From assembly GCA_947503345.1 (NCBI GenBank), contig CANNCW010000005.1:114454-178453 (forward strand): DNA of 64,000 nt, read 5' to 3'. The translations under genes were made by a program, and so were the position numbers. Positions 1,932 to 44,733 of this stretch are shown one piece after another; within the stretch, counting starts at the first letter, position 1, and each line of letters begins with the position of its first letter. The stretch is from an uncultured Kangiella sp. Lineage in GTDB: Bacteria; Pseudomonadota; Gammaproteobacteria; Enterobacterales; Kangiellaceae. The notes under the pieces were generated by a model that was given only the letters and a program-made list of their open reading frames with translations, was not told the DNA's origin and made no database searches.

Positions 1932-4900
1932 TTAACCCTTTCGACGTCTTCTCAATCCTAACAACGATAATGCTAATAAAGTTAATAACCCAGTGCTACC
2001 ACCGCCACTAGACTCGTTATTTACATTAATGTCATTGACAATGATATTAATAGGAGCAGTAGCTTCCCCTCCAAAGGAGTCTGTCACTGTAACTTCTATA
2101 GTTAAAGTAGTTCTCGTTGCAACTTCGGGTGCGGTAAAAGTTACACTACCTGTATTTGTAGAACTAAACACTACCATAGGACCATTAGTTTGTGTCCAAC
2201 TATACATTAATGAGTCGCCATTAGGATCCGAACTTATATCAGCATTCAATGTTACGGACGTTCCTTCATTAACTGTTCCAGATGACGCTATAACCCTAGC
2301 AATCGGAGGCAAATTCGCTTCTATATTGACGATAACTTGTCCTTTAGATTCATCTGTTCCATCAGACGCTGTCACTTCAAAAATTAGTTGTGTGTCGATA
2401 TCCACATCTGGAGATGTAAAACTTGCAACCGCAGTATTATCATTTTCTAAAGAAACAGAAGGCGAGCCTGATACTTGAACCCAGTTATAATTAAGAGTAT
2501 CACCTTGCGGATCAGTTGAGCCACTGGCATCTAAACTAACCACAACATTTTCTCTGACATTAAGGCTTGATTGTGCAAGATTCACCACAGGCGCTTCACT
2601 ATTACAAGTAACAGCGTTGGTAATTTCACCTGATAAGAATGCATCAGTTACACCAATAAACTTAATATTATCAATCGTCCAACCAACTCCTCCAGTATTT
2701 GCATCAGTACCTTGACGGAAGCGAATACGAGCAGTTTTACCTGCATGAGCCGTACCAAAAGCTAGTGTCTCATTAATATATCCTGAAGCAGCGTTCACAA
2801 AAGCAGCTCTTTCACTAATTGGGCTATCGTTATTTTGTCTGATAGTACCATTATAACCAGTAGAGAAAGCCCCACTAGCGGCAGTCACATCAACCCATGC
2901 GCCACCATCGATGCTAATCTCGACAACTCCGCCATCCCAAGAGCCGTCCTCAAAATTATAGGTATGCTCAAACTCAATTGAAAAAGCATCATTGCCAATT
3001 GTTAATTCTGGACTTACAAAACTAATGTCAGAACGGAAACCGTTATCAATAAACATCAAAGCATTTCCTAAATCTGCACGACCATCTACTGAAGTAATGA
3101 TTTTCGCCGTATCAATTGCAACTTGTGCACCATCACCAATGGTCATAGAACCTGACTCTCTTGTCCAATCCTTTTCAGCAGCGGCAATACTTGCAAAATC
3201 TTCGGTATCACGAGTCGCATCTGGCCCCAAATCAAAATTAACTTTATAAGTTAAAGTTTCTATTTCTGGCTCAACAATCACATCCCCAGAAGTTGCTTCT
3301 GGGAATTGAACATTAAGATCAATATTTTGTGCTGTAGTTGCAGAGTTTAAAGTGACTTCAAACGTCACATCTTTCGTCTCAAAATGATTTAGACTAGCGA
3401 TAGTTTGTAACCCGTTATTGTTAAAACTAACATCTGCTAAAGAATTCATTTGTACTGCAACGTTAGAAAGAGGCTCACTACCTGTATTCTTAACAGAAAC
3501 CGTTAATAACGCTGTTTCGCCTGCATCTAAAATTCCATCATCAGTGCAAAAACCTGTACCGCCGGTGTATGCATTATCAATATTACTATCAGCAAAATTA
3601 TAACGTGACTGTCTAGCAACAAAACTCTCAACAACCCCTGCATGGTCAGTTGAGTCTTTCGATGGTGAAAGAGCTCCTACGCCCATACCACGCTTTGCAA
3701 AAGCATCTAACATCAAACCGTAATCAACGTTATTTGATGCCAAAGCTACGGCTAACAATGCATCGCGAGCTTCTGTAAAAGTTGGTGCTACTGGTGTCAT
3801 TTTCAAAGATGCTACAAGATAATTTTTCATTTTGTCTTGAGCAGTGGAAAAATCATAAGTATTCAATAATGAAGCGTAAATTTCCCATAAAACTGTCGCC
3901 CAATAATTACCTGAGTTATGAACTTGGGAATTATTAGAGCCATCAGCACCAAATTGAACAGGGTGAGCTGTTGGCAATGGATTGCCATTTGAAACATGTT
4001 TAAACGTTAAAGCATTTTGCTCCATATTCGTTGAATAAGGAACTCGTCTGATACCAAAATAAGCATCGTTATCAGCCCAGCCATACATTGGATACAAGGC
4101 ATGATACTGTTCATTCCCAGCAACATTTTTATCATTTTCTCCAACATAAGAAAGTAAGGCCATAAAATCACCCCAACCTTCACCCATACCACGGCCTTGT
4201 TGGTTACTTAAACCAAAAGCATTTCCAACTAAACGATTGGTGATGTAGTGTCCCCATTCATGAGCAACGATGGCATTATCCAAGGTTCCGTCGACGTCAG
4301 TATTGTCTCTAAACAAGGTAGCAGTCACAGTACCCGCGTCCATTGCTGTGCGAATAGTAACGCCATCATTTTGTGAAACCATCATGCTTGGAATGGTAAT
4401 GGTATTATCATCACCGCCCATAGTTATAACCTGTGTTGCATCTCTATTATTTGCCACTATGACAGCAATTGCGCCAGCATCCTGAGAGTTTTTAACTTTG
4501 TCTGTAAAGTTACACTCCCCTCTATCCACCAAAGCAATTTTACCTGAAAGTGAAGCCCCATTAGTAGGAGCTGTACAGGCGTCAAATTCGGGAGCTGTAG
4601 CATCCGTATAAGCAATCAAATCACCCGTTGTCTCTGGGTACTCAAGAGGACCAAAGCCTGCTAAGCCAACAGTCGGATTAACTAGCCCTGTAACCCCTGA
4701 CAATGTTAACTGGAAGTCTTCGCCTTGAGTGGCAGGACCATCATAAAGATACATTTGCATTCTTGGAGGAAAACCATCAGAAGGCGTAGCCATGTTGGCA
4801 TTATTTCTACCCGAAGAATCTTGCCCTTCTGCATTTATGGCATCATTGCCGGCGCCACCACGACTATAGTTATCATTTTGAGCATTCAGTGAAGCTTCAT

Positions 4901-6146
4901 CAAACCCAGAGTCATACATCCAGTCGTGCAACCAGTTATTCATATAAAAAAGATTTACGATTGCTGCATTTCTGGAGTTGTTTGCGCCAGCATTATCGGG
5001 ATTATAAGAATAGTCAAAGGTGTTAGCAGAAGTAGTAGAGGCTCTAAAGTCAGAGTCATTAAAACCTTGTCCACCAGAAATATCCAAATAAGCATCAACA
5101 TTATTACCACTTGTGGTAGTTGCACCCGAAGCTAACCATGGATCATTTCTTGAAAATGGTGCTGACTCTAAGGTGACTAACTGGTGTGATGCAGCTTGGT
5201 AAACTCTAGGATTATTTGCATTCACAGTTACAGGATCGGTACCGACAATTGGATACTCATGACCTTGAGGCCCTTCAAATAAAGGGGCTTTCGAGCTATC
5301 CGGCGTAAACACACGGTAAGTAAAGCTTTCAGATTCAACCAAATTCTTACGTGCTAGGACCTTTCCATCACTAGCATCAATAACATAAGAATAAGCAAAT
5401 TGTTCGCCTTGCTTATCTTTACCAAAAAACTCTAAATAGTAAGCTAAGTGTAACTTACCAAACGAATCAAACCAGACTTGTTTGCTTCGTGCATCTTTAT
5501 CTAGTTGAAATTCACTGTGACTTTGAGTTACTGAATAATTCTGATAATTACCAACTTTTTGCGTAGGCTGAACTACGGCAAATGCACTGCCATCAAATAG
5601 ATCTTTTAAAGCAAACTGGAAAGCTTCATCCGCATCAACATTATTAGTTAAAGCTTTAGTATTATCCAAAAGTTTAGGGTCAGCAAAATGGCCGGATGAT
5701 GCGATCAAGTTATGCTGGCTATCCATTAATACATTGAACTCACGCCCGATAACTTCTTTACCTCCAATATATTGCTGATACTTTGCAATAATAGGGCTAT
5801 CGCCTAGATTATGTACCATTTTTAAAGTGGCACTTTGATAGGAGCCTTTTGATTTAGCTAGGCTTTCTGTGGCAACTTGCGGCATCAATTTTGAAAAATA
5901 ATGATTTGCATAAAACTGATCCTTATTAGCTGTACTTTTTGAATTAGGAATTACAGGTTTATCAAGCTGACCATTTACAAAATTCACTAAATGTTGTCTA
6001 GTGACTGCAGTCTTATGTAACTGTCCCTGGCTGTTTGAAAGGTAATAATAATTTTCTTTAGAATTGGTAGATACATCTGCAATCGCAGACAATCCAATCA
6101 ATCCAGATGAAACCGCCATCGAAATTAATGTTTTCTTATAAGACAT
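1932..6146 (-). CDS. Secreted M36 (fungalysin) metallopeptidase with propeptide, PA domain, two PKD-like domains and a GlyGly-CTERM sorting signal
   Basis: Signal peptide; HEWGH zinc motif followed by GMGEGWGD; PA insert KIALVDRGECNFTDKVKNSQDAGA; two LDASGSTDP/LNADISSDP repeats; C-terminus SSGGGSTGLLTLLALSLLGLRRRRKG. Confidence 0.9.
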   Translation of the reverse strand: MSYKKTLISMAVSSGLIGLSAIADVSTNSKENYYYLSNSQGQLHKTAVTRQHLVNFVNGQLDKPVIPNSKSTANKDQFYANHYFSKLMPQVATESLAKSKGSYQSATLKMVHNLGDSPIIAKYQQYIGGKEVIGREFNVLMDSQHNLIASSGHFADPKLLDNTKALTNNVDADEAFQFALKDLFDGSAFAVVQPTQKVGNYQNYSVTQSHSEFQLDKDARSKQVWFDSFGKLHLAYYLEFFGKDKQGEQFAYSYVIDASDGKVLARKNLVESESFTYRVFTPDSSKAPLFEGPQGHEYPIVGTDPVTVNANNPRVYQAASHQLVTLESAPFSRNDPWLASGATTTSGNNVDAYLDISGGQGFNDSDFRASTTSANTFDYSYNPDNAGANNSRNAAIVNLFYMNNWLHDWMYDSGFDEASLNAQNDNYSRGGAGNDAINAEGQDSSGRNNANMATPSDGFPPRMQMYLYDGPATQGEDFQLTLSGVTGLVNPTVGLAGFGPLEYPETTGDLIAYTDATAPEFDACTAPTNGASLSGKIALVDRGECNFTDKVKNSQDAGAIAVIVANNRDATQVITMGGDDNTITIPSMMVSQNDGVTIRTAMDAGTVTATLFRDNTDVDGTLDNAIVAHEWGHYITNRLVGNAFGLSNQQGRGMGEGWGDFMALLSYVGENDKNVAGNEQYHALYPMYGWADNDAYFGIRRVPYSTNMEQNALTFKHVSNGNPLPTAHPVQFGADGSNNSQVHNSGNYWATVLWEIYASLLNTYDFSTAQDKMKNYLVASLKMTPVAPTFTEARDALLAVALASNNVDYGLMLDAFAKRGMGVGALSPSKDSTDHAGVVESFVARQSRYNFADSNIDNAYTGGTGFCTDDGILDAGETALLTVSVKNTGSEPLSNVAVQMNSLADVSFNNNGLQTIASLNHFETKDVTFEVTLNSATTAQNIDLNVQFPEATSGDVIVEPEIETLTYKVNFDLGPDATRDTEDFASIAAAEKDWTRESGSMTIGDGAQVAIDTAKIITSVDGRADLGNALMFIDNGFRSDISFVSPELTIGNDAFSIEFEHTYNFEDGSWDGGVVEISIDGGAWVDVTAASGAFSTGYNGTIRQNNDSPISERAAFVNAASGYINETLAFGTAHAGKTARIRFRQGTDANTGGVGWTIDNIKFIGVTDAFLSGEITNAVTCNSEAPVVNLAQSSLNVRENVVVSLDASGSTDPQGDTLNYNWVQVSGSPSVSLENDNTAVASFTSPDVDIDTQLIFEVTASDGTDESKGQVIVNIEANLPPIARVIASSGTVNEGTSVTLNADISSDPNGDSLMYSWTQTNGPMVVFSSTNTGSVTFTAPEVATRTTLTIEVTVTDSFGGEATAPINIIVNDINVNNESSGGGSTGLLTLLALSLLGLRRRRKG

Positions 6147-10796: not shown

Positions 10797-12014
10797 TTAA
10801 GATGATCTTACCTCTATACTTCGTTTATGCCAAACTAATTGCTCCGCTTCAGCCAATGTATTCGCAATACAACCTAATTTATCTTTACCTAACTCATTAA
10901 CCTGCTGAATCGTTTGAATTTTCAAAAAACTGGCAACACTCAATCCACTTGAGTATTTAGCAGAGCCCATGGTTGGTAAAGTATGATTTGGCCCGGCACA
11001 ATAATCGCCATAAGCAACAGCACTATTATCACCAATAAAAATTGCACCAAAGTTATTCAAGTCAGCCTCTTGAATTCTTGCGTCTGCTAATAACAGGTGC
11101 TCAGGCGCGAAATTATCTGAAAATTCAATCATGTCTTTTTTATCAGTCGCCAAAACTAAAGTTATTTGCTTAGACTGGTATAACCCCCATAAATAATCAT
11201 CGGAACTGATTTTTTCATAAAGAGCAGCTATAAGATTTATTTGATCAGATACAAAAACACTATAAGCCTGCGGATCATGCTCTGCTTGAGCTGCCATATC
11301 CGCAATTACCCAATCTAAATTCGATTCTTCCCCAGCCAATATGAGTAATTCACTCGGACCCGCTGGAACATCAATTGCCAATCTTGACTGAAAATATTGC
11401 TTGGCGGCATTGACGTACTGGTTACCAGGGCCAACAACCATCTCTACGGGCTTTGAGTCTTGATAGCCTAAAGCTAAAGCGGAGATAGCTTGAGCGCCAC
11501 CAATCCTAATAAAGCTTGTTGCCCCGGCTAAAGAAGCTGCCGCTAAAATAGCTGGATGGTCCGAAGGTGAGCAGGCAATACGCTCTTCGCAGCCAGCTAT
11601 TTTTGCTGGAATAAGGGTCATTAAAGCGGTAGAAATCAAAGGGAACCTTCCACCAGGAATATAGGCTCCGATTCTTTTGATTGGACGATAGCAGTAGCCG
11701 TAACGACCAGTATTATCAGTAAACTCACGATCGGTTAAAGACTCCTTCTGAAATAGGCAAAATTGCTCTATCCTTTTAGCTGCTGACACGATGGCATCTG
11801 ACAAAGCTTCATCTAGCTCGTAATCCACAAAAGATTTTAGTGGAATAAAATCAGGACAAAAACCATCAAATCGCTTACTTAAATTATTAATCGCCGTATC
11901 GCCGTCCTGCTCGACTTCTTTGATCAACTCAATAACAGACTGCAAACGAAAAGTGCTTTGTTCAGCATTCGGTCTTTGCCAGTTTTCAGTGGTGAAATAT
12001 CGATTATCCTGCAT
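10797..12014 (-). CDS. hisD: Histidinol dehydrogenase
   Basis: YIPGG, VGPGNQYV, AGPSE, AQAEHD, PEHL, GDYCAGPNHTLPT. Start set at ATG 12014 (SD AGGTG 6 nt upstream); the ORF track uses GTG 12023. Confidence 0.93.
   Translation of the reverse strand: MQDNRYFTTENWQRPNAEQSTFRLQSVIELIKEVEQDGDTAINNLSKRFDGFCPDFIPLKSFVDYELDEALSDAIVSAAKRIEQFCLFQKESLTDREFTDNTGRYGYCYRPIKRIGAYIPGGRFPLISTALMTLIPAKIAGCEERIACSPSDHPAILAAASLAGATSFIRIGGAQAISALALGYQDSKPVEMVVGPGNQYVNAAKQYFQSRLAIDVPAGPSELLILAGEESNLDWVIADMAAQAEHDPQAYSVFVSDQINLIAALYEKISSDDYLWGLYQSKQITLVLATDKKDMIEFSDNFAPEHLLLADARIQEADLNNFGAIFIGDNSAVAYGDYCAGPNHTLPTMGSAKYSSGLSVASFLKIQTIQQVNELGKDKLGCIANTLAEAEQLVWHKRSIEVRSS
10805..10833 (-). promoter_or_regulatory. Candidate sigma70 promoter inside the last codons of hisD, pointing into ispF
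   Basis: Minus strand TTGGCA (10833-10828), 17-nt spacer, TAAGAT (10810-10805); about 32 nt upstream of the ispF ATG. Confidence 0.5.
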
Positions 12015-13242
12015 TACGCGCACCTAGCTCACTCATAATATTCTTAGCTGAAACGCCTTTCGACTTTGCGTTAACCAAAGCAAAATATAATAAATCTGCC
12101 GCCTCCCAGCGCACATCTTCTTGCGACTCTGCCTCGATAAGCTCTAAACATTCTTCATTAAGCTTTTCAGCTTGCAGTGCTTTATCATTAAATAATTTAT
12201 TGGTGTAAGAATTTACTTCTGGCTGCTCAATCCTTCGTTGCAATACTTGATCTAACGAATAAAGACTAAATTCAGGTTTTTGACTAGCGAAACAACTATA
12301 ACGGTCAAAATGGCAAGCATTTCCCGTTTGTTTAACTTGGAATATTAAGGTGTCGCCATCACAATCGTAATCAATATTCATTAGCAGCTGACCATTACCG
12401 CTAGCAAGTCCTTTCTGCCAAACCTCTTTACGAGACCGACTGTAATAAACGCCCCGCTGGCTATCTATCGCTTGCGCTAATGAAGCTTGATTAGAGTAAG
12501 CCAACATTAAAACGCTACGAGTTTCATAATCCTGCACTATGGTTGGTATTAAATCGAACTTATCGAAATCCAAGCAAGAGAATAATCCGTCTTTCAAATT
12601 AATTTTGTTGGTATAAAGGGACATACCAATTTGACTATTTGCCCCAAGTCGGTTTATGTACTGAATGTCATCATAATCAGTGATACCTCCAGCAACCGTT
12701 ACAGGAACTTTTGAGTTCTTAATCACTTGGCTAATTCTTTGCTTATCAATACCTTTCAATAAACCTTCTTTATTCACTTGGGTGTATAAAAATTCAGAAC
12801 ATTTTTTCTCAAGCAATGGTATTAAATCTATTACCTTTGTCTTAGACTTTTCTTTCCAACCCTTAATTGCCCAATTATCATCAAAGGCGTCTATTGCAAA
12901 AATTAATTGTTGTTTCGGTAGCTTATTAACAAATTCATCTTGGCAATTTGTGCCAATAATAATCTTAGAGGCGCCGCTGGCAAGGTAATCTCTTGCGGTA
13001 TCATAATCTCTTATCCCTCCTCCAACTCGGCAAGCTCGTCGAGCTAATAGTTGCTTAATTAATGGCTTATTATCACCTCGACCTAATGCCGCATTCAAAT
13101 CTATAATCGCTACTTCGCCATAAAGAGCGAACTCTTCTAACAAATCAAAAACATTCTCTTTTTCAACTATCTTTTTGTCAGGGTTACCCTGCTGTAATTG
13201 AACGGCCTTGCCATCCAATAAATCAATTGATGGTATTAACAT
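12004..13242 (-). CDS. hisA-hisIE: Fusion of HisA (ProFAR isomerase), HisI (PR-AMP cyclohydrolase) and HisE (PR-ATP pyrophosphatase)
   Basis: aa 1-~222: IPSIDL, VGGGIR, IFAIDA (HisA). aa ~224-325: LIPTIVQD, YYSRSR..W.KG..SG, DCDGD, ACH...SCF (HisI). C-terminus: SYT..L, EK..EE, EAADLLY (HisE). One continuous frame. Confidence 0.9.
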   Translation of the reverse strand: MLIPSIDLLDGKAVQLQQGNPDKKIVEKENVFDLLEEFALYGEVAIIDLNAALGRGDNKPLIKQLLARRACRVGGGIRDYDTARDYLASGASKIIIGTNCQDEFVNKLPKQQLIFAIDAFDDNWAIKGWKEKSKTKVIDLIPLLEKKCSEFLYTQVNKEGLLKGIDKQRISQVIKNSKVPVTVAGGITDYDDIQYINRLGANSQIGMSLYTNKINLKDGLFSCLDFDKFDLIPTIVQDYETRSVLMLAYSNQASLAQAIDSQRGVYYSRSRKEVWQKGLASGNGQLLMNIDYDCDGDTLIFQVKQTGNACHFDRYSCFASQKPEFSLYSLDQVLQRRIEQPEVNSYTNKLFNDKALQAEKLNEECLELIEAESQEDVRWEAADLLYFALVNAKSKGVSAKNIMSELGARNAG

Positions 13243-13997
13243 TTTCTCACCTCAATACTATTTTGAATTAATTTTTCTTTAACTTTCGATACGGTTGTTT
13301 CTCCACGATGAAACATCCCAGCTGCTAACGCTGCGTCACTTCCAGCTTTAAATGTATCCACAAAATCTTGTGCATTAGAGGCTCCGCCCGAAGCAATAAT
13401 TTGTATAGATGATTTCTGACAAACCTTGGCCATCAAGTCATTGTCAAAACCTTCACCAGTTCCATCTTTATGCATCGCGGTTAGCAAAATTTCACCAGCA
13501 CCACGTTGTTCCACTTCACTAATCCACTTAAATGGATCTTTATGCGTTGGCGTATGACCTCCATTAATAAATACCTGATATTGTTCATTCACTTGGTTAA
13601 CATCTATCGCAACCACTAAACATTGAGAGCCAAAACCTATAGCAATTTGGTCAATAAGATCTGGGGTTTTAACAGCTGCAGTATTTAAAGCGACTTTATC
13701 TGCTCCAGCATCTAAAAATGCCACCACATCTCCATAAGAATTAAGCCCGCCGCCAACGGTAAATGGAATAGATAGATTCTTAGCAACATTGGTAACAGTA
13801 TCTAAGGCATTTTTTCGATTTTCCAAAGTAGCCTTAATATCTAGAAACATTATTTCATCAGCTCCTTGTTCTTGGTAATTTATAGCTAATTCAACGGGGT
13901 CACCCATATCCTTCAAGCCTTTAAAATTAACGCCTTTTACCACTCTGCCGTTAGCGACATCCAAGCAAACAATTACCCGCGATTTTAATTTAGACAT
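13236..13997 (-). CDS. hisF: Imidazole glycerol phosphate synthase, cyclase subunit
   Basis: RVIVCLDV, VVKGVNF, GDPVELA, GADEIMFLDI, DGTGEGFD, IIASGGA. Confidence 0.97.
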   Translation of the reverse strand: MSKLKSRVIVCLDVANGRVVKGVNFKGLKDMGDPVELAINYQEQGADEIMFLDIKATLENRKNALDTVTNVAKNLSIPFTVGGGLNSYGDVVAFLDAGADKVALNTAAVKTPDLIDQIAIGFGSQCLVVAIDVNQVNEQYQVFINGGHTPTHKDPFKWISEVEQRGAGEILLTAMHKDGTGEGFDNDLMAKVCQKSSIQIIASGGASNAQDFVDTFKAGSDAALAAGMFHRGETTVSKVKEKLIQNSIEVRKC

Positions 13998-14584
13998 TGT
14001 TTTAGAATCTCCTCACCTTGTTTACCCGATTTTTCAGGATGAAATTGAAATGCTGTTAGCCCTTTAGATTGGATAGAAGCTGAGAACTCATCTCCATAAG
14101 AAACTAAAGAAGTTGCAAACCTAGACTCTTTAACTGCATAACTATTTACAAAATAAACGTCTCTATCACTTAAGAAAGGTATATCTGAATTCAGAGAACA
14201 CCAACCGACCATAGGTTGTTTTGGGCTATTTAACTTAGTAACCCTACCTTCCAATAAACCTAACCCTTCTACGCCCAAATCCTCTTCAGATGATTGGAAA
14301 AATATTTGCAAGCCAACACAGATCCCTACAATTGTTCTGTCTTGTAGATACCAGTCTATTATTACTTTAGATAATCCATTATCGTTTAAGCGTTGCATGA
14401 CACTACCGAACCTACCTTGACCGGGAATGACCATAGCCTTGAATTGTTTTTCTGATTGCTTATCAATATCAGATGCTTGGCTGATCATCACAGGCTCAAG
14501 CCCAATACGCTTCAAGCAAGAAAAAAGACTAAATAGATTGCCAGCTCCAGTATCAATCACTGCTACTTTTTTGATATCAGTCAT
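13985..14584 (-). CDS. hisH: Imidazole glycerol phosphate synthase, glutaminase subunit
   Basis: IDTGAGN, IPGQG, GICVGLQ (nucleophile Cys), QFHPEKSG. Confidence 0.96.
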   Translation of the reverse strand: MTDIKKVAVIDTGAGNLFSLFSCLKRIGLEPVMISQASDIDKQSEKQFKAMVIPGQGRFGSVMQRLNDNGLSKVIIDWYLQDRTIVGICVGLQIFFQSSEEDLGVEGLGLLEGRVTKLNSPKQPMVGWCSLNSDIPFLSDRDVYFVNSYAVKESRFATSLVSYGDEFSASIQSKGLTAFQFHPEKSGKQGEEILKQCLN

Positions 14585-15159
14585 AAAACACCTTTTGAGC
14601 TATTTTCTAAGGCAGTACTAGCTAATGCTTGCTTTAATGCAAACGCTACCGCCTTAAAACTAGCCTCAATTAAGTGATGATTATTATCAAAATATTCAGT
14701 TTTGATATGCAGACTTATTTGCGCATTAATAGCAAAGCTATAGAAGAAGTGTTTCCACATCTCTGTTGCAATATTTCCTATCTGCTCACGACTAAAGGGC
14801 AAGTCGGTAATGCTATAAGCACGACCACAAACGTCCACCGCAACTAACACTAAAGTTGCATCCATTGGCAATAATCGTTGGCCATAACGCTGAATTTTTG
14901 CAGATGCGCGCCATGCTTTTTGTAATGCCTGACCTAAACATATAGCCACATCTTCAATTAAGTGATGGTCATCAACCTCTAAGTCACCTTGCGCAATTAC
15001 TTTCAAATTCCAGCCAGCATGTAGCGCAAGTTGAGTAAGCATATGGTCAAAAAATGGTAACCCTGTATTTATTTCTAAGTTTTGATTACCCGCTATATTT
15101 AATTTGAGTTTGATCTGAGTTTCTTTTGTTTCTCGTTCTATAGATACAGTTTGGCTCAT
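14581..15159 (-). CDS. hisB: Monofunctional imidazoleglycerol-phosphate dehydratase
   Basis: RETKETQI, FFDHML, DDHHLIED, NNHHLIEASFKA; no N-terminal phosphatase domain. Confidence 0.96.
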   Translation of the reverse strand: MSQTVSIERETKETQIKLKLNIAGNQNLEINTGLPFFDHMLTQLALHAGWNLKVIAQGDLEVDDHHLIEDVAICLGQALQKAWRASAKIQRYGQRLLPMDATLVLVAVDVCGRAYSITDLPFSREQIGNIATEMWKHFFYSFAINAQISLHIKTEYFDNNHHLIEASFKAVAFALKQALASTALENSSKGVL

Positions 15160-16826
15160 AATAAATCCTCTAGCTCATTAACACTTTCAAGAACAATGTC
15201 AGCACCAAATTGGTATAAACTCTTATCGCCAATACCTATAGCTAATGCCCCTGCTGATTTAGCTGCAAGCATATCGTCAGGTGCATCACCTAACATCCAG
15301 AGCGAGGTCTTTTTGTAATATTTTTTCGCCTTATCTATTCCTTCCGGACTTGGCTTAGATTTAATGACATCATCATCACTAATCAATAACGTGTTTAATA
15401 TTCCAAGTAAATTTAATCCAGCCTGCCCTTCAGTTTTACCTCTACCGGTTACAACGGCAGTACAAAGACTTTTGGATTTTTGAATAAAAATATAATCTGA
15501 TAATGATCTTTGGATTATTCGAGCCTCTTGTTCATATAATCCTTTCGCTTTTCCATCTCCTAAATAGAATGATTGAAAGGTATCTTTTACTCTATTGAAT
15601 TCAATTTCCTTGCCTTGTTTACGGATAAGTTCTTGTGCAAGAATCCAATCATTATTAAAACCTCCTTGCCCTCGTGTATTTAAAACATCAGCCACCGGGG
15701 GGCTTACACCAGTAAAATCCTCGACTGTTTTAATGATTGCTAAGTCATAGCTTTCTGAGGTATCAATCAAAACCCCATCCATATCAAAACAAATGAGTTC
15801 GGGCTCTAAAGCAAGCTTAAGTGCTGATAACAATCTTTTAATATAAAACGGAATGGCTATTCTTATAGCTTCAAATGAATTTACCTCTGAGAGACCTACT
15901 AACTCAGTTTTTATCTGTATATTCAGCTGCTTACAAGCAGCAGAGATGAGCTTAAGGCGTTTCGAATCTCCTCGTATTAATAAAAAGTTTGCTTCACTAG
16001 AACTTAATACCAATGGATAATCAGATAAAAAATTAATTATCTGCTGACGATTTAAATTAATTTGCTTGCAATAATTTTTAACTTCTAAGCTTGCAGATTG
16101 GGTAAAGGCTAACAACGCTAACTCGATATTAGGCTGCGAAATATTGAAAGGCATTGCCAACTTTTTGAACTCATTAATTAAAGTTTGTTGTCCTAATAAA
16201 TAACCTACTCGGATAGCGGCAAGACCATAGGCTTTGGATAAGGTTCTAAGGATCACTAAATTATCGAAGTCATTAAGTAATGCTAGATACTCATCTTCTA
16301 GATTAGTAAATTCGATATAAGCACAATCGAGAAAAACGTAAGCATTATTTTCTTTAGCCTTCTCACAAACAGCTCTTACTTTCTCTGCTGATAAAGTTTC
16401 GCCAGTGGGATTATTTGGACTTGTGATAATCACCATTGAGTTTTGCTCTATTGAAGACAAAAGTGATTCTTGATCAATATTTAACTCTGCTAATGGCTCT
16501 ATAATTTCGCAGTCAACTTTCCAGGAGTCCTTTCCAACCCAATACTGACTAAAAACAGGTAATGGCAGAATCAATTTAGAATCATTGATTTTTACCCATT
16601 TAAACATCAACTCTATGGCTTCATCGCCACCATTAGTAATCAGCAATTGATCTTTATCAATCTGAAATTTGTCGCAAATGACTTGCTGTAATTGATCCTT
16701 ATTAGGATACTTCCATAGACTATCAACAGGCATTTTAAACCCTGATAACCATAGAGGTAGACTATCCGAGCGTTCATTAAAATCGAGCTTCAGCGTTTTT
16801 TCATTCTGACAACTTAAAACATCCAT
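15156..16826 (-). CDS. hisC: Histidinol-phosphate aminotransferase fused to a C-terminal HAD-family phosphatase
   Basis: aa 1-~340: ITNGGDEAI, SPNNPTG, DCAYIEF, RTLSKAYGLAAIRVGY (PLP Lys). aa ~342-556: FDMDGVLID (D348/D350), VTGR, SKPSPEG, LGDAPDD (HAD motifs I-IV). Confidence 0.9.
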   Translation of the reverse strand: MDVLSCQNEKTLKLDFNERSDSLPLWLSGFKMPVDSLWKYPNKDQLQQVICDKFQIDKDQLLITNGGDEAIELMFKWVKINDSKLILPLPVFSQYWVGKDSWKVDCEIIEPLAELNIDQESLLSSIEQNSMVIITSPNNPTGETLSAEKVRAVCEKAKENNAYVFLDCAYIEFTNLEDEYLALLNDFDNLVILRTLSKAYGLAAIRVGYLLGQQTLINEFKKLAMPFNISQPNIELALLAFTQSASLEVKNYCKQINLNRQQIINFLSDYPLVLSSSEANFLLIRGDSKRLKLISAACKQLNIQIKTELVGLSEVNSFEAIRIAIPFYIKRLLSALKLALEPELICFDMDGVLIDTSESYDLAIIKTVEDFTGVSPPVADVLNTRGQGGFNNDWILAQELIRKQGKEIEFNRVKDTFQSFYLGDGKAKGLYEQEARIIQRSLSDYIFIQKSKSLCTAVVTGRGKTEGQAGLNLLGILNTLLISDDDVIKSKPSPEGIDKAKKYYKKTSLWMLGDAPDDMLAAKSAGALAIGIGDKSLYQFGADIVLESVNELEDLL

Positions 16827-16835
16827 TGCTGACTC

Positions 16836-17684
16836 CTAAAGTACTTTTCTAATCGGCGTTTCTAAAATATCCGTTGCACCAGCAGAAATTAATCTGGGCA
16901 ATAGATCCTTGGTCATACGCCTCTCAATAGCTGCTTTAATAGCAAACCCATCGCCTCGATAGAGCTCGCTCACCGTTGGCGATCGCATTGCTGGTAGCAA
17001 ATCTACAATTTTTTCGACCTTATCTTTAGGACAATTCATTTCTAATAAGACTCGCTTACGACCATTCATCACCCCCCTCATTAATAGTAAAAGGTCATCG
17101 ATTTGCTTCTTCTTTTGAGGATCTTTGAGTATAGACTTGTTTGCGATAAACTGAGTTGAGCTTTCCATAGCAGTACCAACTATTTTCAATCGATTTACTC
17201 GGATGGTTGAGCCAGTACTGGTATTATCAATGACCATATCAGCATCTTCAGGTGGAAAAACTTCAGTAGCGCCATAAGCTCTAAAGAGTTGATAATTAGC
17301 ACCAATAGAATCCAAGTATTGCTTTGCAATTTGTTTATATTCCGAAGCAACTATAATTTCTCGTTGTCTAACTTCACTCCAATCCCATTCCTCTGGAATG
17401 CAAGCCACGATTTTTACTGGGTTAAAGCCGAGGTTTTCTAGCACCTCAACGTCCGCATTTTGTTCTATAATCCAATCCATACCAGCAAAACCAATATCGT
17501 GCTGACCCAATGCAACCATTTCTGGAATGTTTTGGCTTTTCAATAACTTAACCTCAATATCACAACCAAATAAAGTTGGTCTGTAATTGCGACTATCACC
17601 AACCAAGGTTAAGCCAATATCCGATAATAGCTCCTCGACTTTCTCGTAAAGCTTACCCTTTGGTATTACCATTTTTAACGCCAT
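16836..17684 (-). CDS. hisG: ATP phosphoribosyltransferase, long form
   Basis: IPKG, DIGFAGMDW, YGATEVFP, DMVIDNTSTGSTIRVNRL, C-terminal regulatory domain (LPAMRSPTV); SD GGAG. Confidence 0.95.
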   Translation of the reverse strand: MALKMVIPKGKLYEKVEELLSDIGLTLVGDSRNYRPTLFGCDIEVKLLKSQNIPEMVALGQHDIGFAGMDWIIEQNADVEVLENLGFNPVKIVACIPEEWDWSEVRQREIIVASEYKQIAKQYLDSIGANYQLFRAYGATEVFPPEDADMVIDNTSTGSTIRVNRLKIVGTAMESSTQFIANKSILKDPQKKKQIDDLLLLMRGVMNGRKRVLLEMNCPKDKVEKIVDLLPAMRSPTVSELYRGDGFAIKAAIERRMTKDLLPRLISAGATDILETPIRKVL

Positions 17685-23143: not shown

Positions 23144-23161
23144 CGGGAAAATATTATAGCA
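23144..23161 (-). promoter_or_regulatory. Extended -10 promoter for pyrG
   Basis: Minus strand TGC-TATAAT (23158-23153) followed by ATTTTCCCG; about 170 nt upstream of the pyrG ATG. Confidence 0.6.
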
Positions 23162-23230
23162 AAAAGGTCCGATGATTGGCGAGGAGTTTTTGCTAAGATT
23201 GGAGTAACAACCCAACCTTAGCAAGATTTA

Positions 23231-23737
23231 CTACTTACAGCGGTCAGGACGAATCGTAGCGCTTACAGGGTTACCCGCACTGCCGTCAGCCTTTTGTGGC
23301 GTATATTGATAGGTTACTTCTTCAAAATTCAAAGTCACCGATTCAGTCAGCAATTCCTGCCCACCTGAGCCACCCGCAGTCACTGACGAAACGAATAAAT
23401 TTTTAAAGTCCAAAACAAGATAAGCCAAACTACCTCTATCACCAACAGACTTTCTTACTGTTAATTTAGCATTTGGATATATAACTCCATTAACATGCCC
23501 CATCAATAGATCTGGAGATGCTAAATCTGCATATTTAACCATTGAAAGGTCTTGCACGCAGGTTGTCCTACCGTTTGTGGACGAGCCCCAAGACCAAGCT
23601 AAAACGTCAATTTCATTTTTATGATTGATGTTTTTGCTTTCACCTTCCACACCGTCAATTTTTAGAAACATATTTTCTGAATACGCAGAGGTATGGAACA
23701 ATAGAATAGCAATCGAAATGATAACTTTTTTATACAT
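23231..23737 (-). CDS. Hcp1-family (T6SS tube-like) protein with an N-terminal signal peptide
   Basis: MFLKIDGVEGES...HKNEIDVLAWSWG...VQDLSMVKYADLASPDL...AKLTVRK...VSSV..GGSGG..LTESVTLNF..V..QY.PQKADG follows the Hcp1 pattern. Preceded by MYKKVIISIAILLFHTSAYS; SD AAGGA before ATG 23737. Confidence 0.88.
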   Translation of the reverse strand: MYKKVIISIAILLFHTSAYSENMFLKIDGVEGESKNINHKNEIDVLAWSWGSSTNGRTTCVQDLSMVKYADLASPDLLMGHVNGVIYPNAKLTVRKSVGDRGSLAYLVLDFKNLFVSSVTAGGSGGQELLTESVTLNFEEVTYQYTPQKADGSAGNPVSATIRPDRCK

Positions 23738-23925
23738 AATTAAATCCTTTTTTTATCAGAGAAGCTCTTAAAATACGCCTATTTAAGAGAAAAAACCATA
23801 GTCACGAATTTTTACAAACACCCTTTTTGAATATCATCATCTTACTTTTTATAAATACTTGTCTAATATAAGTGTTTAATGTACGGTTAGCATCGTTAGA
23901 TTAAAGTCATAAAATAATACTATCA

Positions 23926-24204
23926 ATGAATAAGTCTCCAAAGAAGTATACAGTCGCCGTATGCCTTTCTGCCATTTTTGGTGTATTAGGTGTTCATCAC
24001 TTCTATTTAGAAAGATGGGCCCATGGAAGCATCGACTTAACACTTTCATTAATGGCACTTTATTTCTTTTCTCAACAACAATATATATGGGCTGGACTGT
24101 TTTTTCTGATGGATCTAGTGCATACAGTTTATGTAACCAGTCTATTAATTATAGGTAAGTATAAAGATGGTAATGGGCTATTTGTTAAAGCTCCCAACCA
24201 TTAA
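23926..24204 (+). CDS. TM2-domain small membrane protein
   Basis: K..VAVCLSAIFGVLGVHHFYL...D...II.GKYKDGNG TM2 pattern. Confidence 0.8.
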   Translation: MNKSPKKYTVAVCLSAIFGVLGVHHFYLERWAHGSIDLTLSLMALYFFSQQQYIWAGLFFLMDLVHTVYVTSLLIIGKYKDGNGLFVKAPNH

Positions 24205-24237: not shown

Positions 24238-24462
24238 ATGGAAAACTCAGTAGAAAAAAGTCCTAAGGAATTTGTACCAACATTAATTTTAGCTATCTTA
24301 TTAGGTGGCTTCGGTGTTCACCGATTCTACGTTGGTAAAATCGGTACCGGTATCTTAATGATCTTAACTTTAGGTGGTTTAGGTATTTGGGCTCTAATCG
24401 ACATTATCATGATTGCTGTGGGCTCTTTCACAGATAAAGAAGGTCGTGTCATTAAAAGCTAA
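24238..24462 (+). CDS. TM2-domain small membrane protein
   Basis: LGGFGVHRFYVGKIGTGILMILTLGGLGIWALIDII..GSFTDKEG. Confidence 0.9.
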   Translation: MENSVEKSPKEFVPTLILAILLGGFGVHRFYVGKIGTGILMILTLGGLGIWALIDIIMIAVGSFTDKEGRVIKS

Positions 24463-43971: not shown

Positions 43972-44733
43972 TTACTCAGATTTCATGCTATCTAAATTTT
44001 GAATCAGCACCTCTGCTGGCTGATAGCCACCAATTAGATTACCATCTTCAAGAATAATACTTGGAGTACCACCTAAACCAAATTTACGCACTAGTTTCAT
44101 ATGTTCAGCTAATGGATTATTACAAGTTGCTTTACTGAACTTTTGGTTCAATTTTGCATCAGTCATCGCGGTCTGGCGATCGGCAGAACACCAAATACCT
44201 TCAAGTTTTTTTGCAGAAGAAGAAGCTAAACCTGCACGCGGGAACGCTAGATAGCGAATAGTAATACCACGATCTAAATAATCTTGGCGTTCACGATGCA
44301 ATTTACGGCAGTAACCACAGTCAATATCAGTAAAAACTGTAATTACGTGTTTTTCATCAGGTGCTTTATAAACCACCATATCTTTTTCTTTCAAAGAAGC
44401 TACATCAGCTTTTCTCATTGGAGCTTTAAGGCTATTCCATTTCGCTTTTTGCGTATTATTCAAATTGACACGGTTTTCAAGATCTATCGCAGTTCCTTGA
44501 ATAAAAAAGCGCCCATCTTTGGATAAATATACTAACTCTCCATCCGCTTCGATTGCATAAAAACCGGGGATATCGCTATCGTTCATCAAGTTGATGTTAA
44601 GACTTGGAAAGCGCTCTTTCATTAACGTTTTTAAATCCTCTTGATTTAGCTCAGCCTCCTTTGCTTCTATTGTAAAAGTAGTCACAAAAAAGCTAAGTAA
44701 CGAAATTAATAAGAGATTAGTAAGTTTTTTCAT
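43972..44733 (-). CDS. dsbC: Disulfide isomerase DsbC
   Basis: Signal peptide, FTDIDCGYC, YLAFPRAG, GTP cis-Pro loop; downstream of xerD. Confidence 0.93.
   Translation of the reverse strand: MKKLTNLLLISLLSFFVTTFTIEAKEAELNQEDLKTLMKERFPSLNINLMNDSDIPGFYAIEADGELVYLSKDGRFFIQGTAIDLENRVNLNNTQKAKWNSLKAPMRKADVASLKEKDMVVYKAPDEKHVITVFTDIDCGYCRKLHRERQDYLDRGITIRYLAFPRAGLASSSAKKLEGIWCSADRQTAMTDAKLNQKFSKATCNNPLAEHMKLVRKFGLGGTPSIILEDGNLIGGYQPAEVLIQNLDSMKSE

What the first reader, a model, noticed from the sequence alone, without database searches (positions are those of the whole stretch)
23231..23737. Orphan Hcp with a Sec signal peptide and a likely disulfide: a T6SS tube protein rerouted for export
Seen: a clear Hcp1-type sequence preceded by a 20-aa signal (MYKK, hydrophobic core, S-A-Y-S cleavage site) with a good SD. 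The internal Met of ENMFLK has no SD. The Gly-rich loop of canonical Hcp1 (after WSWG) is shortened. There are exactly two Cys, C60 in TCVQD and C167 near the C-terminus. No vgrG, tss or PAAR gene occurs in the 64 kb. Known: Hcp folds in the cytoplasm, forms hexameric rings and leaves through the T6SS without a signal peptide. Inference: this is a domesticated Hcp acting in the periplasm or outside the cell, e.g. as a ring chaperone or carrier, a self-assembling nanotube, or a decoy that binds incoming Hcp-dependent effectors. The Cys pair fits an oxidising compartment.
Basis: partly seen in the sequence, partly recalled or inferred. Interest (0 to 1): 0.78.

Follow-up and report, generated by a model that had tools for sequence, protein, structure and literature searches.

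The report
Sec-exported, disulfide-bonded orphan Hcp protein
This gene encodes a copy of the type VI secretion "tube" protein Hcp that carries a classical export signal and a conserved cysteine pair, sits far from any secretion-system genes, and belongs to a large, apparently undescribed clade of Hcp proteins that seem to work in the cell envelope or outside the cell.

Summary
Window 23231-23737 (minus strand) is a 168-aa ORF with three parts:
- a 20-residue Sec/SPase-I-type signal peptide;
- an Hcp1-fold domain (PF05638 E=1.7e-23; PDB 1Y12 E=4e-38; AF2 pLDDT 88) whose Gly-rich L2,3 loop is 10 residues shorter than in Hcp1;
- exactly two cysteines, C60 and C167.

No T6SS gene lies in the 64 kb.

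The protein is not a one-off. Of 210 single-domain Hcp1-type relatives, 116 carry an N-terminal signal ending in A-x-A directly before the canonical Hcp N-terminus (AVDMF). Of those, 73 have the same loop-plus-C-terminal Cys pair, and others have different Cys pairs. Mature Cys counts are even in 106 of 116 signal-bearing proteins, against 45 of 94 cytoplasmic ones. The signal-bearing proteins cluster on a tree.

None of 11 signal-Hcp loci has a T6SS gene within 10 kb, whereas 68 of 75 canonical Hcp1 loci have TssC. Kangiella-like orthologues are syntenic (upstream of pyrG) and under purifying selection.

I conclude it is a Sec-exported, disulfide-stabilised, T6SS-independent Hcp, probably a ring. 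What it does there (effector decoy, carrier or polymer) is untested. Nine literature searches found no description of such proteins. Databases name them "T6SS tube protein".

The parts
23231..23737 (-). Complete ORF (168 aa plus TAG stop at 23231-23233) encoding the signal-peptide Hcp pre-protein
   Evidence: PF05638 at 83.8 bits; 1Y12 E=4e-38; AF2 pLDDT 88.3 and Foldseek top hit 1Y12, TM 0.75-0.82
23678..23737 (-). Signal peptide, residues 1-20 (MYKKVIISIAILLFHTSAYS); predicted SPase I cleavage after S20 (A-Y-S|E)
   Evidence: Sequence. In 116 relatives the n-region has a median net charge of +2, the uncharged run has a median length of 18, and small residues occupy -3 in 90% and -1 in 94%, directly before AVDMF. 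SignalP was not available.
23234..23677 (-). Mature Hcp1-fold domain, residues 21-168
   Evidence: 37 positions are at least 80% conserved with the same residue in both the signal-bearing and the canonical groups
23561..23584 (-). Shortened L2,3 hairpin loop (SSTNGRTT, residues 52-59), 10 residues shorter than the Gly-rich loop of Hcp1
   Evidence: Alignment gap. Median loop length is 16 in the signal+Cys group and 20 in the canonical group. The region is well ordered in the AF2 model (residues 51-60 average pLDDT 90), whereas the canonical loop scores 56-75.
23558..23560 (-). Cys60 codon (TGC), first residues of strand beta3 in TCVQD
   Evidence: co-occurs with the C-terminal Cys in 73 of 116 signal-bearing relatives and never occurs without it in that group
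23237..23239 (-). Cys167 codon (TGT), penultimate residue
   Evidence: invariant in the 34-sequence alignment A2
23745..23749 (-). Shine-Dalgarno AAGGA, 7 nt upstream of the ATG
   Evidence: Sequence. One G of this motif is deleted in the variant allele found in L091 and run X5.
23836..23865 (-). Sigma-70-like promoter candidate (TAGACA-18-GATGAT) about 100 nt upstream of the start; weak evidence only
   Evidence: 9 of 12 matches; 6 sites found in the region against 3.5 expected
23153..23182 (-). Promoter-like site (TCGCCA-18-TGnTATAAT) between hcp and pyrG. It suggests that pyrG has its own promoter and that hcp is a separate unit.
   Evidence: 10 of 12 matches, extended -10; no intrinsic terminator detected

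Best explanation
The gene encodes a pre-protein that the Sec pathway carries across the inner membrane. Signal peptidase I cuts it after S20, releasing a 148-residue Hcp1-fold domain whose new N-terminus matches the natural N-terminus of cytoplasmic Hcp1 to within one residue.

In the oxidising periplasm, C60 and C167 form a disulfide. C60 sits at the base of the shortened L2,3 hairpin and C167 is the penultimate residue. The bond most likely acts as an intramolecular staple that pins the C-terminal tail to the ring face normally used for head-to-tail stacking.

The protein keeps nearly all residues conserved in Hcp1, so it probably still forms a hexameric ring. It works without a T6SS sheath, baseplate or spike, either in the periplasm or, if passed on by a T2SS, outside the cell.

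It belongs to a large, vertically inherited clade of exported Hcp1 paralogues. These are always encoded as stand-alone genes.

Status of each step:
- Shown here by sequence comparison: the Hcp fold, the signal-peptide architecture and its conservation, Cys-pair co-occurrence and even Cys parity, absence of T6SS neighbours, synteny, and purifying selection.
- Inferred: actual export and cleavage, the disulfide and its geometry, and ring formation.
- Speculative, about 0.2: the ring acts as a lumen-binding receptor, for example a decoy that recaptures Hcp-borne T6SS effectors arriving in the periplasm.
For: Fold and family:
- PF05638 E=1.7e-23.
- 1Y12 E=4e-38, about 49% identity.
- AF2 pLDDT 88.3, pTM 0.81.

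Signal peptide:
- 116 of 210 Hcp1-type relatives have an N-extension with net charge +2, an uncharged run of about 18 residues, and A-x-A immediately before AVDMF.
- The SD sits before the upstream ATG and none sits before Met23.

Disulfide:
- Among signal-bearing proteins the loop Cys and tail Cys are both present in 73, both absent in 33, and tail-only in 10.
- Only 2 proteins without a signal have the pair, and both look 5'-truncated.
- Mature Cys counts are even in 106 and odd in 10 with a signal, against 45 and 49 without (nominal p=1.7e-12).
- Two further, different Cys-pair designs occur only in signal-bearing members.
- A DsbC gene lies in the window.

Clade:
- The signal state needs 17 changes on an NJ tree, against 69 in shuffles.
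- One 55-tip clade is 96% signal-bearing, and 54 of its tips have the pair.

Independence from T6SS:
- 0 of 11 signal-Hcp loci have TssB, C, E, F, G, A or ClpV within 10 kb.
- In 75 canonical loci the counts are TssC 68, TssB 63, TssF 58, TssA 58, TssE 51, TssG 48 and ClpV 46.
- There is no T6SS gene in the 64 kb window.

Selection:
- The gene is syntenic upstream of pyrG-kdsA-eno in three Kangiella-like MAGs.
- Between species pN is about 0.19-0.21 and pS about 0.79. Against the 97%-identical allele there are 10 synonymous and 3 non-synonymous changes.

Ring retention:
- 37 positions, including AWSWG and GGSGG..TE, are conserved in both groups.
Against: - No experimental or transcript evidence was found; there were no RNA runs.
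- SignalP could not be run.
- The Cys-Cys distance could not be measured because model coordinates are not returned. An inter-subunit or inter-ring disulfide is therefore not excluded.
- The Kangiella subclade departs from the near-invariant GGSGGEDRLTEN motif (the query has GGSGGQELLTES), so its assembly properties may differ.
- TIGR03344 is far below its cut-off (14.6 against 58.9 bits).
- A close relative carries a frameshifted allele with a damaged SD, so the gene is dispensable in at least one population.
- A T6SS elsewhere in the genome was not excluded; K. profundi FT102 has one on a genomic island (PMC6000758).
- The statistics are not corrected for shared ancestry.
Confidence: 0.65

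Rival explanations
1. It is exported and polymerises. The C60 and C167 residues of neighbouring rings or subunits cross-link, giving covalently locked Hcp tubes or fibres in the periplasm or on the cell surface. This would be a natural version of the engineered disulfide Hcp nanotubes.
For: - The Hcp C-terminus lies at the hexamer-hexamer interface. Engineered Cys pairs there (G96C/S158C) give tubes (PMC3925092).
- The Cys pair is strictly conserved in the clade.
- The sequence comes from biofilm metagenomes.
Against: - The L2,3 loop is shortened rather than extended.
- Other signal-bearing members use Cys pairs between adjacent strands (beta7/beta8) or between beta5 and the tail. These look like intramolecular staples.
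- 33 signal-bearing relatives have no Cys at all.
- There is no partner gene for a cap or an anchor.
Confidence: 0.12
2. It is exported to the periplasm and then released by a type II secretion system. It acts as a soluble extracellular factor (adhesion, matrix, or action on eukaryotic grazers) and not as a periplasmic protein.
For: - The Kangiella-like host encodes large secreted proteases such as the 1404-aa M36/PKD protein in the window. The genus is noted for extracellular proteolysis (PMC6000758).
- Non-synonymous divergence is faster than in the neighbouring pyrG (dN 0.21 against 0.033), which could fit a more exposed protein.
Against: There is no T2SS linkage or any secretion evidence. 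This reading differs from the best explanation only in final location.
Confidence: 0.13
3. It is an ordinary cytoplasmic T6SS tube protein whose start codon is mis-assigned. Translation would begin at Met23 and the protein would serve a T6SS encoded elsewhere in the genome.
For: - Met23 aligns with M5 of Hcp1.
- One Kangiella species has a T6SS island.
- Gene callers sometimes chose the internal start, as in P0004.
Against: - The SD lies before the upstream ATG only.
- The upstream 20-30 codons stay open and keep signal-peptide features with an A-x-A motif in 116 relatives at less than 50% identity.
- Even Cys parity is confined to this group.
- 0 of 11 loci lie near T6SS genes, against about 90% of canonical loci.
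- The Gly loop and the C-terminal WNIxxN motif, both conserved in canonical Hcp1, are lost.
Confidence: 0.03
4. The N-terminal segment is an uncleaved signal-anchor. The Hcp domain would then be tethered to the periplasmic face of the inner membrane.
For: The query's own cleavage site (A-Y-S|E) is weaker than the family consensus A-x-A|A.
Against: - The family-wide A-x-A motif, with a helix-breaking P or S about 6 residues upstream, is typical of cleaved signals.
- The h-region is short (about 10-12 residues in the query).
Confidence: 0.05
5. It is a decaying remnant of a lost T6SS with no present function.
For: - A frameshifted allele with a damaged SD exists in a 97%-identical population.
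- The gene is an orphan.
Against: - It is held at the same locus in at least three Kangiella-like species, with pN far below pS.
- The Cys pair and signal are conserved across a large clade.
- The intact allele is the dominant one, at 133x in run X1.
Confidence: 0.02

Closest known systems
Hcp1 of Pseudomonas aeruginosa H1-T6SS (PA0085, PDB 1Y12), the TssD tube protein and effector chaperone
   Same: - About 49-50% identity over the whole domain.
- Same fold (Foldseek TM 0.75-0.82).
- Shared motifs EIDVLAWSWG and GGSGG..LTE.
   Different: - The window protein has a cleavable Sec signal.
- Its L2,3 loop is 10 residues shorter.
- It lacks the C-terminal WNIxxN tail.
- It has a conserved Cys pair.
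- It is never next to tss genes.
- It scores below the TIGR03344 cut-off.
Engineered disulfide Hcp nanotubes (P. aeruginosa Hcp1 G90C/R157C, recalled from memory; EAEC Hcp1 G96C/S158C, PMC3925092)
   Same: A cysteine sits at the C-terminal tail, which lies at the ring-ring interface.
   Different: - Here the pair is natural.
- Its partner is at the base of L2,3, not in L4,5.
- It is probably intramolecular.
- The engineered pairs need artificial oxidation in the cytoplasm or in vitro.
Periplasmic T6SS immunity proteins and orphan immunity genes (e.g. Tsi1/Tsi3-type; established knowledge)
   Same: They are small Sec-exported proteins encoded in potential prey cells, and some are orphans without a cognate T6SS.
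   Different: - Immunity proteins are defined by adjacency to, and specific binding of, a cognate effector.
- None has an Hcp fold.
- No effector gene lies next to the signal-Hcp genes.
Hcp-ET (Hcp with C-terminal extension toxins; established knowledge)
   Same: Both are specialised, diverged Hcp paralogues encoded outside main clusters.
   Different: Hcp-ETs carry a C-terminal toxin domain, have no signal peptide and are fired by a T6SS. The window protein ends 10 residues after the Hcp domain.
Single-chain six-domain Hcp proteins found here (P0121-P0144 and others)
   Same: The Hcp fold appears in a non-T6SS architecture. Many carry an N-terminal LExRxLL(A/S) motif which, from memory, is typical of secreted Planctomycetota proteins.
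   Different: - They are 1000-2100 aa with six tandem domains.
- They have almost no cysteines.
- They belong to a different lineage and are not in this window.
Phage and tailocin tail-tube proteins (lambda gpV, T4 gp19; established structural homology to Hcp)
   Same: They share the tail-tube fold. A PHROG of unknown function matches (phrog_27303, E=9e-14).
   Different: Tail-tube proteins are cytoplasmic, assemble on a tape measure or baseplate, and have no signal peptide.

Membership tests
Hcp/TssD (Pfam PF05638, T6SS tube protein) | Sequence match to the Hcp domain above the curated threshold | tested here: met
   83.8 bits against a cut-off of 23.5, residues 24-145 covering profile positions 1-129 of 129
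Hcp/TssD (T6SS tube protein) | Hcp beta-barrel fold | tested here: met
   AF2 pLDDT 88.3; Foldseek top hits are 1Y12, 4TV4, 8YUN and 3EAA, probability 1.0, TM 0.74-0.89
Hcp/TssD (T6SS tube protein) | No signal peptide; folds and assembles in the cytoplasm inside the TssBC sheath | tested here: not met
   A 20-residue Sec-type signal is conserved in 116 relatives with A-x-A cleavage motifs. This is rule-based analysis, not SignalP.
Hcp/TssD (T6SS tube protein) | Encoded in or near a T6SS cluster, or in a vgrG/effector auxiliary module | tested here: not met
   No T6SS family in the 64 kb window. 0 of 11 signal-Hcp loci have tss genes within 10 kb, against 68 of 75 canonical loci with TssC. [quoted passage not shown]
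Hcp/TssD (T6SS tube protein) | Hexameric ring that stacks head-to-tail into a tube and is expelled by sheath contraction | not testable with these tools
   Only monomer prediction was available. Conservation of 37 core positions suggests ring retention. The elements at the stacking face (L2,3 loop and C-terminus) are remodelled.
NCBIfam TIGR03344 (VI_effect_Hcp1 / TssD subfamily) | Score above the curated cut-off of 58.9 bits | tested here: not met
   14.6 bits, E=0.022
Sec/SPase I secretory pre-proteins | Positive n-region, hydrophobic h-region of 7-15 residues, c-region with small uncharged residues at -3 and -1, no lipobox, no twin-arginine motif | tested here: met
   MYKK / VIISIAILLF / HTSAYS|EN. 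There is no Cys in the signal and no RR.
Disulfide-bonded periplasmic/extracellular proteins | Paired, co-varying cysteines; even Cys number in the mature chain | tested here: met
   2 Cys in the query. Co-occurrence is 73 both, 33 neither and 10 tail-only. Parity is 106 even to 10 odd with a signal, against 45 to 49 without. The bond itself has not been observed.
T6SS immunity proteins | Encoded adjacent to a cognate effector and neutralises it | tested here: not met
   No effector-like neighbour in any of the loci examined. Neutralisation is not testable here.
Hcp-ET (Hcp with C-terminal toxin) | C-terminal extension domain after the Hcp domain | tested here: not met
   The protein ends at residue 168, about 10 residues after the last Hcp strand
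Known anti-phage defence proteins (PADLOC) | Match to a PADLOC model | tested here: not met
   0 families for the query, P0043 and P0018

The most novel reading that the evidence does not exclude
Signal-peptide Hcps are a widespread, stand-alone envelope defence. A disulfide-stabilised Hcp ring in the prey's periplasm would mimic the attacker's tube and sequester Hcp-borne T6SS effectors as they arrive, or cap incoming T6SS, tailocin or phage tubes. That would be a generic 'decoy immunity' that needs no cognate immunity gene. The independent single-chain six-domain Hcp proteins would then be a second solution to making such rings outside the cytoplasm.
Probability: 0.15. Interest if true: 0.9.

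Novelty: new variant of a known kind. Interest (0 to 1): 0.72.

Why it matters
Hcp is the textbook example of a protein that leaves the cell without a signal peptide, and its presence is routinely taken as a marker of a T6SS. This work points to four consequences.

1. A well-known machine part appears to have been domesticated for a new compartment. A large, conserved clade carries a Sec signal and disulfides and has no T6SS neighbours.
2. Current annotation ("type VI secretion system tube protein Hcp") is misleading for these genes. It can create false T6SS calls in genomes such as Kangiella.
3. The clade offers a testable candidate for a new kind of envelope protein: a decoy, a carrier or a polymer.
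4. It provides naturally disulfide-stabilised Hcp rings, which may interest protein-nanotube engineers.

Tried and rejected
- **Genome survey cut short.** It returned mostly canonical Hcp1 loci, with only 5 signal-type loci among 80. I reused the canonical loci as a control set. I could not measure how common signal-Hcps are per genome or whether they co-occur with a T6SS.
- **Window protein not on record.** An exact look-up of the window protein found nothing. The organism is inferred only as Kangiella-like, from synteny with an 'uncultured Kangiella sp.' MAG.
- **No transcripts.** No RNA runs hold the gene.
- **Tail-stapling test uninformative.** I compared AF2 confidence of the C-terminal tail in the signal-Hcp and in a canonical Hcp1. 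Both scored 87. Model coordinates are not returned, so the C60-C167 distance could not be measured.
- **Other libraries.** PADLOC gave no hit. PHROGs gave only a family of unknown function.
- **Terminator.** No intrinsic terminator was found downstream.
- **Literature.** Nine searches on Hcp with signal peptide, orphan Hcp, Hcp-like, T6SS-independent, PF05638, Sec-dependent, tandem Hcp and Kangiella found no paper describing signal-peptide or tandem Hcps. The library omits most subscription journals, so this is not proof.
- **Mis-called start.** Considered and rejected; see the rival explanations.
- **Link to TM2 genes.** I considered a functional link to the divergent TM2-domain genes upstream. 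I rejected it because those neighbours are absent in the orthologous loci L001 and L092.
Full report
**1. What is in the sequence**

The finding's coordinates hold a minus-strand ORF, 23231..23737, of 168 aa starting with ATG. Pfam assigns residues 24-145 to T6SS_HCP across the full profile (83.8 bits, cut-off 23.5). The closest solved structure is P. aeruginosa Hcp1 (1Y12), E=4e-38. That alignment begins at query residue 18-21, which matches Hcp1 residue 3, and shows one 10-residue gap in the query where Hcp1 has its Gly-rich loop.

An AlphaFold2 model built on 34 relatives is confident (pLDDT 88.3, pTM 0.81). Foldseek against the PDB returns only Hcp proteins at the top (1Y12, TM 0.75-0.82).

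The first 20 residues (MYKK-VIISIAILLF-HTSAYS) have the n-, h- and c-regions of a Sec/SPase I signal, with A at -3 and S at -1. An AAGGA Shine-Dalgarno lies 7 nt before this ATG, and nothing SD-like precedes the internal Met23. The protein has exactly two cysteines, C60 (TCVQD) and C167 (penultimate residue).

**2. The window contains no T6SS gene**

I scanned essentially all ORFs of 110 aa or more with Pfam and inspected the remaining intergenic small ORFs. The neighbourhood is housekeeping:
- Downstream on the same strand: pyrG, kdsA, eno, ftsB, ispD, a his operon, ispF, truD, surE and pcm.
- Upstream, divergent: two TM2-domain genes, an HTH/2TM protein, a hydrolase, msrA, mazG and relA.

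A DsbC homologue lies at 43972-44733. No TssA-M, VgrG, PAAR or ClpV family appears anywhere.

**3. The signal peptide and the Cys pair are family features**

A protein search returned 929 relatives. The 25 closest are almost all 165-190 aa instead of the canonical 160-162. Each begins with a positively charged, then hydrophobic, segment ending in A-x-A immediately before 'AVDMFLKI', which is the N-terminus of cytoplasmic Hcp1 (MAVDMFLKI). A profile search of 1.84 billion cluster representatives found 14,909 Hcp relatives, and most of the best single-domain hits have the same architecture.

Pooling 210 single-domain sequences gave the following:
- 116 carry the N-extension. Its median n-region charge is +2 and its median uncharged run is 18 residues. 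Small residues occupy -3 in 90% and -1 in 94%, with P or S about six residues upstream.
- Among those 116, loop Cys and C-terminal Cys are both present in 73, both absent in 33, and tail-only in 10. The loop Cys never occurs alone.
- The 10 'tail only' cases turn out to have different pairs. One design joins beta7 ('vCvxYT') to beta8 ('CWD'). Another joins beta5 ('R[FL]C[FM]') to a C-terminal Cys.
- Only two sequences without a signal have the pair, and both look 5'-truncated (P0004, P0165).
- The number of Cys in the mature chain is even in 106 of 116 signal-bearing proteins but in 45 of 94 signal-less ones (nominal Fisher p=1.7e-12).

Several independent Cys-pair designs, all confined to signal-bearing members, are what one expects for proteins that fold in an oxidising compartment. 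These counts are not corrected for shared ancestry.

On a neighbour-joining tree the signal state needs 17 changes, against 69 in shuffles. One 55-tip clade is 96% signal-bearing and 54 of its tips have the pair. The window protein sits in a 24-tip short-loop subclade with Kangiella-like, Kangiellaceae and Shewanella proteins.

**4. Signal-Hcps are orphans; canonical Hcp1s are not**

The genome scan was dominated by canonical Hcp1 loci, which I used as a control. I clustered all ORFs within 10 kb and named the clusters with Pfam.

| Neighbour | Canonical loci (of 75) | Signal-Hcp loci (of 11) |
|---|---|---|
| TssC | 68 | 0 |
| TssB | 63 | 0 |
| TssF | 58 | 0 |
| TssA | 58 | 0 |
| TssE | 51 | 0 |
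| TagJ | 51 | 0 |
| TssG | 48 | 0 |
| ClpV | 46 | 0 |

The 11 signal-Hcp loci were the window, Kangiella-like L001 and L092, Shewanella L002 and L093, L005, L007, L009, Paraglaciecola L014, Pontiella L056 and L094.

Contexts of the signal-Hcps differ between lineages: pyrG in Kangiella-like genomes, cinA in Shewanella, a type IV pilus minor-pilin cluster in a Burkholderiales MAG, and a caspase/TPR operon for a Cys-less subfamily. No conserved partner gene emerges.

**5. Vertical inheritance and selection**

Three Kangiella-like MAGs carry the orthologue at the same site upstream of pyrG-kdsA-eno. Two Shewanella species share another site. Between Kangiella-like species pN is about 0.19-0.21 while pS is saturated at about 0.79. 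dN is about six times that of the neighbouring pyrG (0.21 against 0.033). This is purifying selection on a gene whose protein sequence diverges faster than the neighbouring pyrG.

A 97%-identical MAG (L091) has a +2 insertion in an A-run, which shifts the frame, and has lost one G of the SD. The same allele is in metagenome run X5. Runs X1 (133x), X3 and X4 have the intact gene. Apart from the indels the two alleles differ by 10 synonymous and 3 non-synonymous changes, so any inactivation is recent. The indels could also be assembly artefacts in homopolymers.

**6. What changed relative to cytoplasmic Hcp1**

Thirty-seven positions are at least 80% conserved with the same residue in both groups. 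They include F, GES, H, IDVL-WSWG (containing the equivalent of pore-facing S31; its role is recalled from memory), D, K, R, GGS-G and TE. Fold and probably ring assembly are therefore retained.

Constraints lost in the signal+Cys group are the Gly-rich L2,3 loop, the residue equivalent to H78, the one equivalent to N128, and the C-terminal WNIxxN motif. The literature places the Hcp C-terminus at the hexamer-hexamer (head-to-tail) interface opposite loop L4,5, and describes L2,3 as a variable overhang loop (PMC3925092). In EvpC the C-terminal residues and an unmodified N-terminus are needed for T6SS secretion (PMC2944823).

The remodelled parts are thus the ones that matter for stacking and firing. 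In the AF2 models the shortened hairpin is ordered (pLDDT 90), whereas the canonical Gly loop is not (56-75).

**7. Mechanism I consider most likely**

The steps are Sec export, cleavage after S20, DsbA-type oxidation of C60-C167, and ring assembly in the periplasm or beyond.

I favour an intramolecular staple for two reasons. The alternative designs (beta7/beta8, beta5/tail) are most simply intramolecular. Both tail-anchoring designs would also tether the tail to the same face if beta3 and beta5 are neighbours; that is an inference, since I could not measure distances.

Function is open. The closest cytoplasmic relatives are H1-type Hcp1s, known as lumen chaperones of small effectors (established knowledge). 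A periplasmic ring that binds such cargo, acting as a decoy, is attractive but untested; I give it about 0.15-0.2. A covalently locked polymer and a T2SS-released factor are the main alternatives.

**8. Comparison with known systems and novelty**

By fold and Pfam the protein is an Hcp. It fails the features that define a T6SS tube protein in practice: absence of a signal peptide, tss linkage, and the TIGR03344 threshold (14.6 against 58.9 bits). It is neither an Hcp-ET nor an immunity protein, and it has no PADLOC match.

Nine literature searches found no description of signal-peptide Hcps. Source databases name them 'type VI secretion system tube protein Hcp'. A Kangiella comparative paper reports a T6SS only on a genomic island of K. 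profundi FT102 (PMC6000758). This agrees with most of the genus lacking one, but I could not examine the rest of this genome.

I class the finding as a new variant of a known kind, with interest 0.72.

**9. Side discovery**

The profile search ranked 1000-2100-aa proteins highest. Of the 59 representatives over 260 aa, 29 have exactly six contiguous Hcp domains, and those with fewer may be fragments. Many have an N-terminal LExRxLL(A/S) motif and almost no cysteines. These would be single-chain pseudo-hexameric Hcp rings. No paper on them was found. They suggest independently that Hcp rings are used outside the T6SS.

Noticed in passing
not in the window; proteins P0121-P0144, P0154, P0157, P0188, P0205, P0211, P0219, P0245, P0251: Proteins of 1000-2100 aa hold exactly six tandem Hcp domains: 29 of the 59 representatives over 260 aa. 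This looks like a single-chain pseudo-hexameric ring. Many begin with an LExRxLL(A/S) motif which, from memory, is typical of secreted Planctomycetota proteins, and they have almost no Cys. No literature was found.
   Followed up: partly
window 23399 and 23746; locus L091 5001-5509; run X5: A 97%-identical population carries a +2 nt insertion in an A-run, which frameshifts hcp after residue 112, and has lost one G of the Shine-Dalgarno. The intact allele dominates in runs X1 (133x), X3 and X4. L091 also has about 550 bp extra, with a 127-aa ORF, between hcp and pyrG. This is either recent inactivation or a homopolymer assembly error.
   Followed up: partly
relatives P0179, P0190, P0191, P0228, P0249, P0253; P0177, P0198, P0267: Other signal-bearing Hcps use different cysteine pairs: beta7 'vCvxYT' with beta8 'CWD', or beta5 'R[FL]C[FM]' with a C-terminal Cys. 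These are independent disulfide designs on the same fold.
   Followed up: partly
loci L094 and L095 (P0043, 241 aa): A Cys-less signal-Hcp subfamily with a roughly 70-aa C-terminal extension sits in an apparent operon. The order is TPR protein, caspase-like peptidase C14, Hcp, then a TPR/methyltransferase. The arrangement is found on many freshwater metagenome contigs.
   Followed up: no
window 10797-17684 (minus strand): A compact his operon is inserted between ispF and ispD relative to the Kangiella-like MAG L001. It includes fused genes: a 412-aa HisF-like + PRA-CH + PRA-PH protein and a 556-aa aminotransferase + HAD phosphatase.
   Followed up: no
window 1932-6146 (minus strand): A 1404-aa secreted-type protease has M36 fungalysin, PA and PKD domains. 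This fits the extracellular proteolysis noted for Kangiella (PMC6000758).
   Followed up: no
window 43972-44733 (minus strand): A DsbC-type periplasmic disulfide isomerase is encoded here, next to xerD-like recombinase and recJ genes. The host therefore encodes part of the periplasmic disulfide machinery.
   Followed up: no
window 23231-23737, residues 67-150: There are weak sequence matches to alphavirus capsid protease (Pfam Peptidase_S3 at 16.1 bits, below the 21.2 cut-off; about 30 PDB capsid chains at E~2e-4). This is probably a chance resemblance and not homology.
   Followed up: no
window 23926-24204 and 24238-24462 (plus strand): Two small TM2-domain membrane proteins are divergently transcribed from hcp. 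They are conserved in L091 but absent from the orthologous loci L001 and L092, so they are probably unrelated to hcp.
   Followed up: partly
locus L009/L012 (Burkholderiales MAG): Here the signal-Hcp lies directly downstream of a type IV pilus minor-pilin/PilY1 cluster and of a 1481-aa and a 173-aa protein without Pfam hits. It is a single case and may be coincidence.
   Followed up: no
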